Assembly (NCBI RefSeq): GCF_055900595.2
Contig: NZ_CM148325.1
DNA: 64,000 bases
Reading direction: 5' to 3' (one strand)
This document shows positions 43,401 through 49,400 of the stretch, piece by piece. How positions within the stretch are numbered: position 1 is the first letter of the stretch; each line of letters begins with the position of its first letter. The position numbers were made by a program.

Positions 43401-46400
43401 TTAAAGCAGATAGCAGAGCTTGAATCTCAGGCAACGCTGACAGAAAAAGAAAGGAAACGTCTGATAAGTCTGAGAAAAAAAGCTGATGCAGATACTGAGC
43501 GTATGGAAAGGGCTGATAAATATGCCCGGGAAAAATACGAGGCCACGATTAATCAGAGCTATTACCTGAGTAGTAAGTTTGCTACTGCTGTCGCCAGTGC
43601 TTCACTTAATTCCGGTTTTCGTATGGGGACGCGACAGATGCTGGGGCTTATTCTTGCCGAGATCTGGTTCGAACTGAGGGAACGAATCCCGCATATTATC
43701 AGGCAGCAACGGAACTCATTCAGTGCCGGCAAATGTCTGTCCGAAATAACGTCAGCATTACGTGTCTGCCAGAAACGAGTACAGGAAAAATTCAGTTCTT
43801 TTTTAATTGCCTTTAAAGATGGAGTCATCGGAGGGATACTGTCAGGTATTACCACAACGCTGTTAAATATATTCCTGACAACGGAAAGAATGAGTGTCCG
43901 GCTTATCAGGGAAATGTGGAACAACCTCGTTCAGGCCTTTAAAGTCCTGGTATTTAACCCGGAGGGATTATCGCCGGGGCAGTTAGCCAAAGCGGTCACT
44001 AAACTGATAGCAGCAGGTGTGGCTGTTGCCGGTGGGGTGATGATAAATGAGGCGATGGCGCAGATCCTTATTTTTCCATTTGGTTCAGAGCTTGCTGCCT
44101 TTTGTGGTGCGCTGACGACAGGTATTCTCGGGCTGGTGATGAATTATTATCTCGAATATAGCGAGGTTATGCAGCGGGTATGGGCATTTCTGGACAAATT
44201 TAAGGACAAATTCCAGCGGTCACTGGAATACTTTCAGGCAGTCAATGCTGAACTTGATCGCTATCTTGTGGAACTTACTGCACTGGAATTTTCTGTTGAT
44301 GCTGCCGCGTTAAATCATTTTTCACTTCATCTGGATAGCGTAAACAGTGAGATAGAGCGCGGACTTCTGCTGAGAGAAGAAGTCAGCCGACGAGGGATTG
44401 CGTTGCCGTTTGAGTCAGGAAATGTGGCTTCTGTTCGTGACTGGTTAAATAAGCGATGAAATTACACCCTCCATTTCCCTGTAACCAGTGTGGGGCCTGT
44501 TGTCGTCATGTCAACAGGGCGGGTGAAACGCAATGTCTGGATCGTGGTGACGGTATTTGCCGTCACTATCAGACTGATTCTCATTTGTGTGCAATTTATG
44601 ATAAACGCCCACAGATTTGCCGGGTTGAAGACCAGTATTTACTGAATTATCAGTCTCAGTACAGCTGGCAGGAGTTTATTGCATTAAACCAGGCCGCCTG
44701 CCTTATTCTGAATAAACTGTAATGCCATTAATGGCGGCGTCAGGACAGAAACTGAGAGAACATAAAACAGTAAAATGTCATTCCGTTCAGCAGCCAGCGT
44801 TGCTTTCTCCGGCTGCTGTTATTGTAAGGCATTTTCGTTAAGAACGCAGAAGGAGAGGATCGTGAGATTGCTGTTAAAAGGGCTCGTCGGAATGGCGCTG
44901 GTCTGGCTTGTTATTGGTTTCGGGATGGAGTTATTTTTTCTCGCCGATCGGGTTCATCCGGCATTAAGAGTAATCGTTGGCCTGGGGATGTTATTCCTGA
45001 TGATAATGATTGCGGGTGGTATGTGCGGTTCTCTTCTGTCACGAAAGAAAACATCATGACGTTCCTGTTTACGCCGTTACATTTGTGGCGGCGGATGATA
45101 CCTGTTTTATGATTATTCAGAAAAATGTATTTACCTGTCACGGCATGTTCAGCGAGCGGCGCCGGACAGAAATATCGCTTTTACTCAATTATTATGAAAA
45201 TTAATCTTCCATTCATACACTGGCCACGGATTAGCAATGATAAGCGCCTCGTGTTATCAGTGGTTGTCTTTATCCTTTTTAATCTCCTTGTATCCTCAGG
45301 AGCGCATCTGATTTACCGGATATTATTCTTTATCCTGGCGCTTCTTATTATTAAGGCAATGAAATCGATTACGTTGCGTTTGATTCTTGCCTTCCCGTTC
45401 ACATTACTGACTGCTGCAGATATCAGTATCAGCCTGTATTCATGGTGTACATTTGGCACAACATTTAATGATGGTTTTGCAATCAGTATCCTTCAGACAG
45501 ATCCTGATGAAGTAATAAGAATGTTCAGGATGTATGTTGTTTATGTTATCGCATTTATTATCCTCTTTTTATTGTTCTTCTGTTCAGCAATAAATAAAAC
45601 GTCCTCATTGCCATCGGAAAATGTCACGGTAATTACATTTTTATTGTTAATTACAGTAACGTTATATTCTTCCTTCCAGTTTGCGTTGAAGAAACAGTAT
45701 CAAATAAATGAAGTTGATCCTTACATAGTCGCTTCCCGGTTTGCCACATATACCCCTTTCTTTAATCTGAACTATTTTGCACTGGCCGCAAAGGAGCATC
45801 AGAGATTAATGACGATTGCTGATACCATACCTCACTACGATCTGGTGATTACGGATAACAACACTGACGTATTTGTTCTGGTGATTGGTGAATCTGCAAG
45901 GACTGATAACATGTCCATTTACGGGTATTCGCGCCCTACCACACCAGAGCTTCAGAAACAGAAATCACGACTGAAACTGTTCACTCAGGCAATCAGTGGC
46001 GCACCTTACACCGCGCTGGCTGTTCCACTGGCGTTATCTGCCGATAGTGTACTGCATCATGATATCCGTAATTACCCTGATAACATTATCAACATGGCGA
46101 ATCAGGCGGGGTTCGATACCTGGTGGCTCAGTGCGCAGTCCGCTTTCCGACAGAACGGAACGGCTGTGGCCAGTATCGCCATGCGGGCCAGAAACAGAAT
46201 TTATGTCAGAGGCTATGATGAGTTACTGCTCCCACACCTGGCTGAAGCACTGAACAGTAATCCGGGGAGCAGGAAACTGATTGTTCTGCATCTGACGGGC
46301 AGCCATGAACCGGTTTGCAGTAACTGGCCCAGAGATAAAGCCGTGTTTAAACCGCTGGATACAGAAGAAGTCTGTTACGATAATTCCATTCATTATACCG

Positions 46401-49400
46401 ACAGTTTGTTGGGACAGGTTTTCGCCATGCTGGAAACGCGTCGGGCATCCGTCATGTATTTTTCAGATCACGGTCTGGAGTATGACCCGACAAAAGAACA
46501 TGCCTATTTTCATGGTGGAATAAAACCCAGTCAGCAGGCTTATCATGTTCCGATGTTTATCTGGTACAGCCCGACACTGGGAGAGCATGTCGATCGCCAG
46601 ACGGTGAACAGCGTTTTTTCCACTGCGTATAATGATTATCTGATTAATGCATGGATGGGCGTAACCAGACCGGCTCAACCGAAAACGCCGGAGGAGGTGA
46701 TTACCCGCTGGCAGGGGAAATCCGTGGTTTTTGATGCCAGTCATAACGTGTTTGACTACAAAGTATTACGAAAGAACTTTAATGAACTCCAGGAATAATT
46801 CGTTAAAGTAATTTACGACTCTATTCTTTTTTAAAGGAAACTTTCAGAAAATGCCCCCAGGGCGATAACCTGGGGAAGGGGGACTGTGTTATTACTGGTG
46901 GATAAATTATTACTTGTTTGAAAGATACACTAATGCAATATCTACTGATGCTGGATGCTTGAGTGTTTCATTCCTGCTGCTGAAAACGGCAATATCCAGG
47001 GCCAGACATATTCACCGTTAATATTTCTGCATTTCTGTACAATTTCCTCAGAAAGTGTCTCATCAATTCTTTCCCGCAACAGCTTCTGCTGTCTTAAAAT
47101 GCTTTCGCATATTTCGAAATCATCTTCCTGCATCAGCATTTCGGCGCATTTAATGATTTCTGCTCGTTCATGCAGCACAGAGGAATGGTTATAGAGCCAG
47201 TTTACAAACAGCAATGCTTCCGGATATTGTCCCCATAATGGTGAGTATGTTGCATAGTAATCTTCTGCCGTATCCAGAGAGCCGGAGAAGTTATGCCGCA
47301 CAGCAAGTGGAAATGGATGCAAATTTCCGCACAGCATTTCCGCGATGTAAGTGTTTGTAGCAAAGCCATGACGAAAAGCTGTGGCAGCCTTAACATGTTC
47401 CCCATTCAGAAAATGCAGAAGACCAAGTTCATACCAGTAAGGTGAAAATTCATCAGCATGCTCTTTCAGTACACTGAAGGCTTGCTTATGATCGCCTGTT
47501 CGTAACAGTTCTGAGCCCAACAACCAGCGGGCACCCTGATTATCTTCAGGATTGTATGCCAGTATTTTATCAGTAAGCATAACCGCATCCTGATGACGCT
47601 GTAAGTGCACATTTGCGAGAATTGCTGCATAAAGTGCGCGCAGATAAGGCCGGTTTTCGGGATGCATCCAGATGATTTCACCACTGAAACTTTCCGGGAT
47701 GAGACGATTACCTGCCGCCAGTCCTTTAAGAGCGGCGTTCAGTGCCTTACGCGGGGCATTCTGCTCCAGAAATGCATATGCCAGATGAGCGTGTATATCA
47801 ATAAAGTCAGGCTCCCGTTGAGCAAGGCGTCTGAGTTTGTTGATATAACTCGTTTCGCTGATTTCATCTGTGTCGTATGCATCAAGCAGTTCTTCAAACT
47901 CACCCAGTAATGGGCCGAACCAGGTTTCCGGAAATACAAAATAACCCAGGTTATCGTGCACTTCAAAGCGTAATCTGTCGTTCATTTTCTGAGCCTGTAA
48001 AACGGATGGGACACAATCTGAAAAGCATAAAAGTTGTGATGTTGTGTATCAAGTCTTGTTTTTGTCCGGGATGAATGTTGTTTACAATATCATCGGCAGT
48101 GGTTTTTCATGAGAATGAAAATTTATCTTTATCTGCATTCCGGTGTATTGTGAATTGTCGGCTGAAACAGCATATTAATCGATTTTTTTAGGGGAATGGT
48201 GCTGAAATAACGACATGATGATGATTTATATTACAGGTATCAAAATTGTTAGCGGTCCATAACGGTGTGATGTTTTGAGATTGTTTACAGATGCAATATT
48301 AAATATTTTGACAAAAAACAAAAAACAAAAAACAAAAAACAAAAAACAAAAAATATCTAAAAATAAAGCATGAAAACAAAATTCCTCCGGACCTGGAGGC
48401 CGGAGGAGAACTTGTGGATTGAGAGAAAATATCAGAACAAGTGTTCTTAACCCTGACTCTCTTGCCTGGAAAGCGAATCAATGTAATCTGCGTACCATTG
48501 CATCATTTCACGGCGACCATCGAGATACTGGGCATGATTATAGGTACCCCTGATGGCGTTTTTATCCACATGAGCTAACTGCATTTCAATCCAGGCAGAA
48601 TTAAAGCCCTGTTCGTGCAGAATGGTACTCATGGTGTGACGAAAACCATGACCGGTTGCCCTGCCATCGTAACCGATACGTTTGAGCACCATATTGATGC
48701 TGGCTTCGCTCATTGGCTTGTTGATATCACAACGTCCCGGGAAAACCAGCCGGTATTGTCCGGAGAAAGTTTTGAGCTGCAGCAGAATGTCAGTGGCCTG
48801 TCGTGACAGTGGTACGACATGTTTACGTCGCATTTTCATGCGGCTTTCAGGGATTGTCCACAGGGCATTATCAAAATCAATTTCTGACCATTCAGCGGAC
48901 CGTAGTTCAATCGTTCTGAGGCCTGTCAGAAGCAGCAGATTTGTCGCCATGCGGGTAACAGGACTGCCATGATACTCAGCGAGCTTCCGGAGAAAAACAG
49001 GGAGCTCATCTGCTCTCAGGTGGGGGAAATGTGCAGCTTTTGGCGCCGCCAGCGTACTGGTCAGTTCAGATGCCGGATTGACAGTGGCTCGTCCGGTGGC
49101 GATGGCATAACGAAAAATCTGATTACAGTATTGACGCACCTTACGAAGTTTTTCCAGCGAGCCACGTTTTTCTATGCGGCGCAGAATTTCCAGCATTTCC
49201 AGCGGGAGGATATCCGTAACGCTTCGTTTGCCCAGATACGGGAAAATATCTTTATCCAGCGCTTCCAGTACGCTTCTGGCGTAACTTTCAGACCATGACA
49301 AAGATTTATGCTGGTGCCATTCCGTAGCGAGGGCATGGAACGTATTGGTGGCAGAGATTTTCTGAGTGAGTTTTTCCTTTCGCTTCTTTTCGCCCGGGTC

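What the first reader, a model, noticed from the sequence alone, without database searches (positions are those of the whole stretch)
44775..46798. Small membrane protein plus phosphoethanolamine-transferase-like gene immediately downstream of the WYL operon
Same strand, 52 and 65 bp spacers, so possibly co-transcribed with the WYL cluster. An EptA/OpgE-like sulfatase-domain enzyme could modify LPS or another envelope target (phage receptor masking or antimicrobial peptide resistance), or the two may be a separate cargo unit.
Basis: inference. Interest (0 to 1): 0.35.

Follow-up and report, generated by a model that had tools for sequence, protein, structure and literature searches.

The report
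Island-borne YhbX-like phosphoethanolamine transferase gene
This is an ordinary, already annotated gene for an envelope-modifying enzyme that belongs to the conserved backbone of E. coli tRNA-linked genomic islands, preceded by a tiny membrane-protein gene; it is a neighbour of the WYL operon, not part of it, and what the enzyme modifies is still unknown.

Summary
The small gene is 65 aa (GTG 44862-45059), not 94 aa. The transferase most likely starts at ATG 45194 (534 aa). The spacers are therefore about 139 and 134 bp, not 52 and 65 bp.

The enzyme is an intact phosphoethanolamine (pEtN) transferase. It has about five predicted transmembrane segments, a sulfatase-fold domain, and all six catalytic and zinc-site residues of the solved EptA structure. 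It is 65% identical to the uncharacterised E. coli core protein YhbX. It falls far below the NCBIfam cut-offs for EptA, EptB, EptC and MCR.

The window is an E. coli pheV island. Among 5,426 complete genomes:
- the small-ORF+ept unit is in 445;
- the unit plus the WYL operon is in 348;
- the unit directly follows Eleos (leoCBA) in 75;
- ept alone follows Bunzi (bnzAB) in one, plus one metagenomic contig.

So ept is the fixed, integrase-side flank of a slot that holds exchangeable defence cassettes. It is not a WYL-operon component. Sequence alone cannot settle co-transcription.

The small protein is restricted to E. coli. Its only other detectable relatives are in Goslar-like jumbo phages, and it is absent next to Bunzi. 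The acceptor is unknown. Interest is low.

The parts
44788..44818 (+). Hairpin (8-bp outer GC-rich stem, -14.4 kcal/mol) followed by UUAUUGUAAGGCAUUUU. A weak candidate terminator at the 3' end of the WYL cassette. It lies in cassette-specific sequence, upstream of the junction with the ept module.
   Evidence: RNAfold. The terminator scan did not report it because the loop is too long. The stem is kept in the WYL-context loci, with one C-to-T change that gives a G-U pair. The Eleos cassette ends in an analogous -21.5 kcal/mol hairpin.
44850..44855 (+). Shine-Dalgarno-like AAGGAG, 6 nt before GTG 44862.
   Evidence: Read directly from the sequence.
44862..45059 (+). Small ORF of 65 aa with a GTG start. 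Two hydrophobic segments are joined by a short DRVHP loop, and both ends are basic, which suggests an N-in/C-in hairpin. Annotated in RefSeq as a hypothetical protein (WP_001238008.1).
   Evidence: hydropathy. pN/pS is 0.36 in frame, against 0.67 and 1.88 in the other two frames, versus the Eleos-context allele. Of 61 database variants, all E. coli, 24 keep exactly 65 aa and many singletons are frameshifted. Homologous to Goslar gp101.
45072..45093 (+). 9-bp hairpin just after the small ORF stop. The 151-nt stretch 45050-45200 (the spacer plus short flanks) folds better than shuffles (z = -2.7). A 13-nt indel at 45093-45105 differs between alleles. Role unknown.
   Evidence: No Rfam match.
45125..45193 (+). 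First 23 codons of the longest ept ORF (the PGAP start). Probably 5' leader rather than coding sequence.
   Evidence: pN/pS is at or above 1, or no synonymous change at all, in four of the five comparisons with any non-synonymous change. L004 has ATA instead of this ATG. L014 homology starts only at 45179.
45194..46798 (+). YhbX-family phosphoethanolamine transferase, 534 aa from the supported start. About five N-terminal transmembrane segments (residues ~16-165) and a periplasmic sulfatase-fold domain. Predicted nucleophile Thr273 (codon 46010-46012). Metal and active-site residues Glu233, His371, Asp425, His426, His451.
46855..46875 (.). GC-rich hairpin between the convergent ept and TPR genes. 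It is terminator-like for the minus strand and has no U-run on the + strand.
46942..49889 (-). Rest of the conserved island backbone to the right of ept: TPR protein gene (46942-47985), P4-type tyrosine integrase gene (48447-49667) and tRNA-Phe pheV (49814-49889).
   Evidence: The same order is seen in L001, L002, L009 and L010 at pheU, pheV and selC.
40399..44858 (+). Context. This is the variable slot between the Tia/PagN-like outer-membrane-protein gene (39593-40396) and the ept module. Here it holds the WYL regulator, PDC-M09A-like, PDC-M40B-like and YkgJ-like genes.
   Evidence: Homology to the Eleos and Bunzi islands ends at 40396-40398 on the left and resumes at 44862 or 45179 on the right. 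PADLOC hits.

Best explanation
The large gene encodes an intact inner-membrane, zinc-dependent pEtN transferase of the YhbX clade.

By homology with EptA, EptC and MCR (inferred, not shown here), Thr273 takes phosphoethanolamine from phosphatidylethanolamine. It passes the group to an acceptor on the periplasmic face and releases diacylglycerol. The acceptor is unknown. The clade groups with EptC and OpgE rather than with EptA and MCR. I therefore consider a glycan acceptor (LPS core or another periplasmic or surface glycan) more likely than lipid A.

The gene is not a component of the WYL operon. It is a backbone gene of E. coli islands that integrate at pheV, pheU and selC through a P4-type integrase. 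The order is OMP gene, variable slot, (small ORF), ept, TPR, int, tRNA. The slot holds alternative defence cassettes: WYL/PDC here, Eleos or Bunzi elsewhere.

The small ORF is a real but weakly constrained 65-aa two-helix membrane protein. It is related to a Goslar-like phage protein. It travels with ept in the WYL and Eleos contexts but is absent from the Bunzi context, so ept does not strictly need it.
For: Family and active site:
- Pfam Sulfatase E 1.1e-50.
- PDB hits to EptC (5zzu, 1.5e-24) and to full-length N. meningitidis EptA (5fgn, 1.1e-22, query residues 48-471). The Glu, Thr, His, Asp-His and His positions are all aligned and conserved.

Clade:
- 65% identity over 516 aa to K-12 YhbX. 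24-29% to OpgE, EptA, EptB and EptC. 31% to the yjgX pseudogene.

Selection:
- pN/pS 0.12-0.23 in the five more diverged comparisons.

Modularity among 5,426 genomes:
- ept unit at >=80% coverage in 445; WYL operon in 373; both together in 348.
- leoA-small ORF junction in 75.
- bnzB-ept junction in 1 genome plus contig L014.
- Junctions at 44859-62, 44897 and 45179.
- The same block occurs at pheV, pheU and selC.

Literature:
- Every pheU, pheV and selC insertion studied carried a putative pEtN transferase named YjgX or YhbX (PMC6174562).
- 'Putative opgE' genes lie next to intA/intS in pap islands (PMC8946752). This matches L011, where papG-II precedes this block.
Against: - No experiment bears on activity or acceptor, and YhbX itself has no established function (PMC4013655).
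- The gene decays often. Among the loci fetched there is a frameshift (L004), an internal stop (L010), a deletion (L011), an IS5 replacement (L003) and an IS1 insertion (H21).
- 250 of 695 matching genomes hold less than 80% of the unit. Selection is therefore not uniform.
- In every context the upstream cassette is on the same strand, and no consensus promoter for the unit was found. Read-through transcription from the WYL operon is not excluded.
- The EptC/OpgE grouping rests on a small neighbour-joining tree and on NCBIfam score order, which is weak evidence for the acceptor.
Confidence: 0.72

Rival explanations
1. The small ORF and ept are functional downstream genes of the WYL operon. They would be co-transcribed effectors or accessories of that candidate defence system.
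For: They are on the same strand, with no canonical terminator or consensus promoter between 42666 and 46356. 348 of 373 WYL-operon copies sit next to the unit.
Against: The linkage is one-sided. About 97 of 445 ept units lack the WYL operon and follow Eleos, Bunzi or an Ail/Lom gene instead. Junctions fall exactly at the small-ORF start or the ept start. The WYL cassette carries its own hairpin with a U-rich tail at 44788-44818. Neither protein hits any PADLOC model.
Confidence: 0.06
2. The unit is itself an anti-phage or surface-variation module. The transferase would decorate LPS or another receptor glycan and block adsorption or change serotype, as the plasmid-borne Lpt-O does in Shigella. 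Its position beside a defence hotspot would then be functional.
For: It sits on a mobile island at the edge of a slot holding Eleos, Bunzi or WYL/PDC cassettes. A precedent exists for a mobile pEtN transferase acting on O-antigen (Lpt-O, PMC10525099). pEtN transferase homologues occur in some phage records at 27-32% identity. The small ORF has phage relatives.
Against: There is no close relative in phages, and in plasmids only one 93%-identical copy on a 62-kb E. coli record. There is no PADLOC hit. The gene is often a pseudogene. Flanking a hotspot is what backbone genes do and does not imply shared function.
Confidence: 0.12
3. It is a lipid A pEtN transferase of the EptA/MCR kind that confers polymyxin or cationic-peptide resistance.
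For: The best NCBIfam hit is the generic 'phosphoethanolamine--lipid A transferase' domain model (162.5 bits). The full-length alignment to NmEptA keeps the catalytic residues.
Against: Every specific model fails by a wide margin: generic 162 against 500, EptA 96.6 against 660, and MCR families 38-66 against 1075-1250. Identity to E. coli EptA is 27%. No PmrA box lies upstream, and matches in the window are at chance level (62 against 56.5 expected).
Confidence: 0.08
4. The small ORF is not a functional gene. It would be a decaying remnant or an upstream reading frame with at most a cis-regulatory role for ept.
For: Constraint is modest (pN/pS 0.36, based on 29 changes). Many database variants are frameshifted, mostly singletons. 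It is truncated in L004, absent in L014 and not annotated in the Eleos context. Its upstream promoter region is not conserved between contexts.
Against: The 65-aa frame is kept across two allele groups that differ by about 15% in DNA, and the substitutions are conservative. It has a Shine-Dalgarno sequence. It has significant homologues of the same length and topology in phages (z = 15 and 11).
Confidence: 0.25

Closest known systems
YhbX (E. coli K-12 b3173, 'putative hydrolase/transferase YhbX')
   Same: 65% identity over 516 aa. Same length class (541 against 534 aa) and the same start position relative to the first transmembrane helix. All catalytic residues are shared. It is the nearest neighbour in the tree.
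   Different: YhbX is a core gene next to tRNA leuU, with no integrase and no upstream small ORF. The window gene is an accessory island copy. Neither has a known acceptor (PMC4013655).
EptC/CptA (LPS heptose I pEtN transferase) and OpgE/YbiP (periplasmic glucan pEtN transferase)
   Same: Same architecture and catalytic residues. EptC is the best PDB hit (1.5e-24). The CptA model is the second-best NCBIfam hit. OpgE is the sister branch of the YhbX clade in the neighbour-joining tree (PMC3818809).
   Different: Only 24-28% identity. The CptA subfamily score is 146 against a cut-off of 404. It is not an orthologue of either, so their acceptors cannot be transferred to it.
EptA/PmrC and the MCR-1 to MCR-13 lipid A pEtN transferases
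   Same: Same fold, zinc site and Thr nucleophile. The alignment to NmEptA 5fgn covers residues 48-471.
   Different: 27% identity to E. coli EptA. All curated cut-offs are missed by several-fold. No linked two-component system and no PmrA box.
YjgX (K-12 pseudogene beside leuX-intB) and other integrase-proximal pEtN transferase genes of E. coli islands
   Same: Same position and orientation: convergent with a P4-type integrase next to a tRNA gene. Noted in the literature for pheU, pheV, selC and pap islands (PMC6174562, PMC8946752).
   Different: Only 31% identity over the catalytic domain. YjgX is a different paralogue occupying the same kind of place.
Lpt-O (Opt) of Shigella flexneri
   Same: A mobile-element-borne pEtN transferase that changes a surface glycan, the O-antigen (PMC10525099). 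It is the closest functional precedent for the receptor or serotype reading.
   Different: It is plasmid-borne. Its sequence relationship to the window gene was not tested here.
Goslar gp101 (YP_009820786.1), for the small ORF
   Same: 49% identity over 49 aa. Same length (63-65 aa), the same two-helix layout and a basic C-terminal tail.
   Different: It is a jumbo-phage gene about 0.9 kb upstream of the endolysin gene, with no pEtN transferase nearby. Its function is unknown.

Membership tests
Phosphoethanolamine transferase superfamily (YhbX/YhjW/YijP/YjdB; EptA-type) | Periplasmic sulfatase/alkaline-phosphatase-fold catalytic domain | tested here: met
   Pfam PF00884 E 1.1e-50, residues 250-497 of the long ORF. 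Hits to solved catalytic domains of EptC, EptA and MCR-1/2.
Phosphoethanolamine transferase superfamily (YhbX/YhjW/YijP/YjdB; EptA-type) | N-terminal membrane anchor of about five helices | tested here: met
   The hydropathy scan gives segments within residues ~16-165, the same pattern as YhbX. The alignment to full-length NmEptA starts at residue 48. Pfam reported no family other than Sulfatase for this protein at E <= 0.01.
Phosphoethanolamine transferase superfamily (YhbX/YhjW/YijP/YjdB; EptA-type) | Thr nucleophile plus Glu/Asp/His zinc ligands | tested here: met
   E233, T273, H371, D425, H426 and H451 align with the corresponding residues of NmEptA. The first five also align with all five E. 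coli paralogues; at H451 only YhbX shares the His.
Phosphoethanolamine transferase superfamily (YhbX/YhjW/YijP/YjdB; EptA-type) | Transfer of pEtN from phosphatidylethanolamine to an envelope acceptor | not testable with these tools
   Needs mass spectrometry of lipid A, core, OPG and other glycans.
YhbX clade | Closest to YhbX among all E. coli paralogues, over the full length | tested here: met
   65.3% over 516 aa (729 bits), against 94-110 bits for the other paralogues. The database search returned YhbX proteins at 65-66% directly after the island alleles.
EptA / MCR (lipid A pEtN transferases) | Score at or above the curated NCBIfam cut-off | tested here: not met
   EptA PRK11598 96.6 against 660. 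PRK09598 135.9 against 561. Generic domain 162.5 against 500. MCR families 38-66 against 1075-1250.
EptB (Kdo pEtN transferase) | Score at or above the curated NCBIfam cut-off | tested here: not met
   110.6 against 493; 29% identity over 252 aa.
EptC/CptA | Score at or above the curated NCBIfam cut-off | tested here: not met
   145.8 against 404 and 130.3 against 900; 24% identity.
OpgE (YbiP) | Orthology to E. coli OpgE | tested here: not met
   27.6% identity over 312 aa. The core opgE gene is present separately in the same genomes, for example L011.
WYL operon / candidate defence system (WYL + PDC-M09A-like + PDC-M40B-like + YkgJ) | Conserved co-occurrence in both directions with the operon's genes | tested here: not met
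   348 of 373 WYL operons have the unit, but 97 of 445 units lack the operon and follow Eleos, Bunzi or other genes.
WYL operon / candidate defence system (WYL + PDC-M09A-like + PDC-M40B-like + YkgJ) | Co-transcription with the operon | not testable with these tools
   There is only a non-canonical hairpin at 44788-44818 and no consensus promoter. RNA-seq is needed.
Class II holins (considered for the small ORF) | Two transmembrane helices, N-in/C-in, basic C-terminal tail | tested here: met
   Two hydrophobic segments (1-29 and 31-60), a DRVHP loop, an MRLLLK N-terminus and an SRKKTS tail. The topology is inferred from the positive-inside rule.
Class II holins (considered for the small ORF) | Part of a lysis cassette with an endolysin, and matches to holin families | tested here: not met
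   No endolysin gene lies near it in the island. No Pfam family hit, and only weak hits to PHROGs of unknown function (E 0.005 and 0.96). In Goslar the homologue is near, but not adjacent to, the endolysin gene.

The most novel reading that the evidence does not exclude
The 65-aa membrane protein is a phage-derived partner (Goslar gp101 family) that works with the YhbX-like transferase as a two-gene envelope-remodelling or superinfection-exclusion unit, placed at the border of a defence-cassette hotspot. If so, the YhbX clade, the last uncharacterised pEtN transferase family of E. coli, would act in phage or host surface interactions.
Probability: 0.08. Interest if true: 0.55.

Novelty: already known. 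Interest (0 to 1): 0.17.

Why it matters
In itself it matters little. The gene is annotated in RefSeq, is present in about 8% of complete E. coli genomes, and has been noted in island surveys. Three points are useful.

- It removes two genes from the candidate WYL defence operon and fixes that cassette's right-hand boundary at about 44859.
- It identifies the OMP-to-ept interval as a slot holding Eleos, Bunzi or the WYL/PDC cassette. This is independent support that the WYL cluster is a defence system.
- It flags the YhbX clade as a pEtN transferase family without a known acceptor. The island copy could be used to find that acceptor. The island copy also contributes to a published GWAS signal near pap (PMC8946752), probably through linkage.

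Tried and rejected
- Subfamily assignment with NCBIfam: no model passed its cut-off, and no YhbX- or OpgE-specific model appeared among the hits.
- PADLOC: neither protein hit a defence model.
- PHROGs and Pfam for the small ORF: nothing usable.
- Rfam on 44300-47100: no match at E <= 1.
- PmrA-box search: matches at chance level and none upstream of the unit. By eye, a single CTGTCAC half-site is not a Pho box.
- Promoter and terminator scan: nothing on the + strand within the unit.
- A small-ORF homologue upstream of core yhbX: none found.
- K-12 yjgX as the orthologue: rejected, only 31% identity.
- Literature on YhbX and YjgX: only strain-construction mentions, negative controls or lists, with no function.
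- Goslar lysis-gene literature: nothing on gp101.
- The spanin idea for Goslar gp100 and gp099: rejected. gp100 is a multi-pass membrane protein and gp099 is a soluble basic protein without a lipobox.
- Structure prediction was not run. Sequence matches to solved structures already settle the fold, and a monomer model cannot test a small-ORF-Ept interaction.

Full report
**Where this is.** The window is an E. coli chromosome segment with a genomic island at tRNA-Phe pheV. The tRNA lies at 49814-49889 on the minus strand. A P4-type tyrosine integrase gene lies at 48447-49667 (minus), and yqgA and speC follow to the right. Megablast of 40400-48400 finds the same 8 kb at 99.6-99.8% identity in the top-listed complete E. 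coli genomes. The same block occurs at pheV, pheU and selC in different strains.

The small ORF:
- RefSeq annotates 65 aa from GTG 44862, and AAGGAG sits 6 nt upstream.
- In strain CH4784 (L002) the same unit follows leoA, and homology to the window begins about 3 bp before this GTG. The 29 extra codons of the 94-aa reading are therefore not conserved.
- The phage homologues align from the MRLLLKGL N-terminus.

The transferase:
- PGAP uses ATG 45125. Codons 1-23 differ from L002 by 7 non-synonymous changes and 1 synonymous change.
- Codons 24-557 give pN/pS of 0.12-0.23 in the five more diverged of seven comparisons.
- ATG 45194 corresponds to the annotated start of K-12 YhbX and to the start of an 88%-identical allele in contig L014. 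That allele's homology to the window begins only at 45179.
- I therefore take 45194-46798 (534 aa) as the gene. The spacers become 139 bp and 134 bp.

**What the enzyme is.**
- Pfam gives Sulfatase at E 1.1e-50.
- Solved structures: EptC catalytic domain (5zzu) at 1.5e-24, full-length N. meningitidis EptA (5fgn) at 1.1e-22 over query residues 48-471, then MCR-1 and MCR-2.
- Glu233, Thr273, His371, Asp425, His426 and His451 all align with the corresponding residues of N. meningitidis EptA. The first five also align with all five E. coli paralogues. At His451 only YhbX shares the histidine.
- Hydropathy shows about five N-terminal helices, as in YhbX.
- NCBIfam gives hits to 19 models, all far below their curated cut-offs: generic lipid A transferase 162 against 500, CptA 146 against 404, EptB 111 against 493, EptA 97 against 660, and MCR families 38-66 against 1075-1250.
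- Direct comparison gives 65% identity to K-12 YhbX over 516 aa. Identity is 28% to OpgE/YbiP, 24% to EptC, 29% to EptB, 27% to EptA and 31% to the yjgX pseudogene.
- A small neighbour-joining tree puts the island alleles with YhbX and places OpgE as the next branch.
- YhbX has no established function (PMC4013655). OpgE is YbiP (PMC3818809).

The catalytic mechanism can be inferred from the family. The acceptor cannot.

**Is it part of the WYL operon?** Comparative data say no. Among 5,426 complete genomes:
- the small-ORF+ept unit is present at >=80% coverage in 445;
- the WYL operon (40817-44722) is present in 373;
- the whole 8 kb is present in 348.

Almost every WYL operon therefore sits beside the unit, but about a fifth of the units have another neighbour.
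- In 75 genomes the neighbour is leoCBA. PADLOC recognises these as LeoA, LeoB and LeoC, which is the Eleos system. The junction lies at 44859-44862 and the small ORF is intact.
- In contig L014 and one complete genome the neighbour is bnzAB (Bunzi; BnzA E 8e-189, BnzB E 2e-201). The junction lies at 45179 and there is no small ORF.
- In strain K_EC180 an Ail/Lom gene and a short ORF precede a 5'-truncated small ORF (junction at 44897) and a frameshifted ept.

On the left, homology between the WYL, Eleos and Bunzi islands ends at the stop of a Tia/PagN-like outer-membrane-protein gene (40396-40398), at 71-74% DNA identity. The layout is therefore OMP gene, exchangeable slot, (small ORF), ept, TPR gene, integrase, tRNA.

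The window's slot holds the WYL regulator, a PDC-M09A-like protein (E 5e-22), a PDC-M40B-like protein (E 5e-42) and a YkgJ-type cysteine-cluster protein. Ept is the fixed right flank of this slot.

This agrees with published notes. All pheU, pheV and selC insertions studied carried a putative pEtN transferase named YjgX or YhbX (PMC6174562). 'Putative opgE' genes lie next to intA/intS near the pap operon (PMC8946752). In L011 the block directly follows papG-II.

**Transcription.**
- The consensus scans find no + strand promoter between 42666 and 46356. They find no + strand terminator between 40851 and 47463.
- A -14.4 kcal/mol hairpin at 44788-44818 is followed by UUAUUGUAAGGCAUUUU and lies in the cassette-specific sequence.
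- The Eleos cassette ends in a comparable -21.5 kcal/mol hairpin just before the small ORF. Each cassette may therefore bring its own terminator.
- These hairpins are not canonical terminators, and only about 45 nt remain before the GTG.
- The stretch from the small ORF stop to the ept start (45050-45200) folds better than shuffles (z = -2.7) and carries a 13-nt indel polymorphism. There is no Rfam match.
- Co-transcription therefore remains open and needs RNA data.

**The small ORF.**
- It has two hydrophobic segments, a DRVHP loop and basic ends.
- Against the Eleos-context allele there are 13.7 synonymous and 15.3 non-synonymous changes. pN/pS is 0.36, against 0.67 and 1.88 in the other frames, and the replacements are conservative.
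- The word-indexed search found 61 variants, all from E. coli. 24 are exactly 65 aa, and the frameshifted forms are mostly singletons.
- An exhaustive phmmer search of 1.84 billion representatives found only the E. coli clusters plus two proteins of 64 and 62 aa, at E 2e-4 and 4e-4. One of these lies on contigs syntenic with Escherichia jumbo phage Goslar.
- tblastn finds Goslar gp101 at 49% identity. BLASTP gives 7e-13 for the single comparison.
- Smith-Waterman scores exceed all 5,000 shuffles. z is 15 with composition-preserving shuffles and 11 with shuffles confined to the transmembrane segments. The relationship is real.
- Goslar gp101 lies about 0.9 kb upstream of the endolysin gene, separated from it by a multi-pass membrane protein and a basic soluble protein. 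Its function is unknown.
- The holin-like layout is a resemblance only. There is no endolysin gene near the small ORF in the island and no match to a holin family.
- An intact ept exists without the small ORF (L014), so it is not an obligate partner.

**Other checks.**
- No close relatives of Ept occur in phages. In plasmids there is only one 62-kb E. coli record at 93%.
- No PmrA box lies upstream.
- The gene decays often. Five of the roughly fourteen loci examined are disrupted, although that sample was chosen to span the ranking and is biased. 250 of 695 matching genomes hold only fragments.

**Verdict.** This is an ordinary, already annotated island backbone gene: a YhbX-family pEtN transferase with an intact active site and an unknown acceptor. 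It is preceded by a weakly constrained, phage-related small membrane ORF. It is a neighbour of the WYL cluster and not a component of it. Interest is low. The by-products are a precise right boundary for the WYL cassette and the recognition of a defence-cassette slot between the OMP gene and ept.

Noticed in passing
window 40399-44858; L002 4828-8876; L014 2609-5775: The interval between the Tia/PagN-like OMP gene and the ept module behaves as a defence-cassette hotspot. It holds WYL + PDC-M09A-like + PDC-M40B-like + YkgJ here, Eleos (leoCBA) in 75 genomes, and Bunzi (bnzAB) in one genome plus one metagenomic contig. The junctions are sharp, at the OMP stop codon on the left and at 44859 or 45179 on the right.
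   Followed up: partly
window 44862-45059; L022 3995-4186 (Goslar gp101); L019/L020 5001-5195; L021 122-310: The 65-aa island membrane protein has its only detectable relatives outside E. coli islands in Goslar-like jumbo phages. These are 46-58% identical, with z = 15 against shuffles. The phage copy lies near the endolysin gene.
   Followed up: partly
L005 7989-10159; L017 4617-6476; L006 2406-6792 (all K-12): Three of the K-12 pEtN transferase paralogues lie beside tRNA genes: yhbX next to leuU, eptB next to proK, and the yjgX pseudogene next to leuX-intB. Core yhbX may itself be the remnant of an old tRNA-linked island.
   Followed up: no
window 38966-39340 (-): An H-NS-family gene just left of the OMP gene is shortened here (124-aa ORF). 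It is annotated as frameshifted in APEC O2-211 (L013) and STEC306 (L012) but is full length in FDAARGOS_1287. The ept region is AT-rich (GC 0.40 at 45001-46000), so silencing by H-NS is plausible.
   Followed up: no
window 46942-47985 (-): A 347-aa TPR protein gene lies between ept and the integrase gene in most contexts. It is missing in K_EC180 and interrupted by IS elements in others. It matches no PADLOC or PHROG model and its function is unknown.
   Followed up: no
window 44456-44722: The YkgJ-type CxxCxxCC gene overlaps the stop of the PDC-M40B-like gene by 4 bp. It is annotated in only some RefSeq genomes although the sequence is present, so gene counts for the WYL cluster vary between annotations.
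   Followed up: no
L011 2565-10042 (strain AREA_R485): The OMP-WYL-ept-TPR-int block directly follows papG-II. This explains the published GWAS signal for a 'putative opgE' near pap as linkage. In this strain ept carries an internal deletion and the island sits beside glnH rather than beside an annotated tRNA gene.
   Followed up: partly
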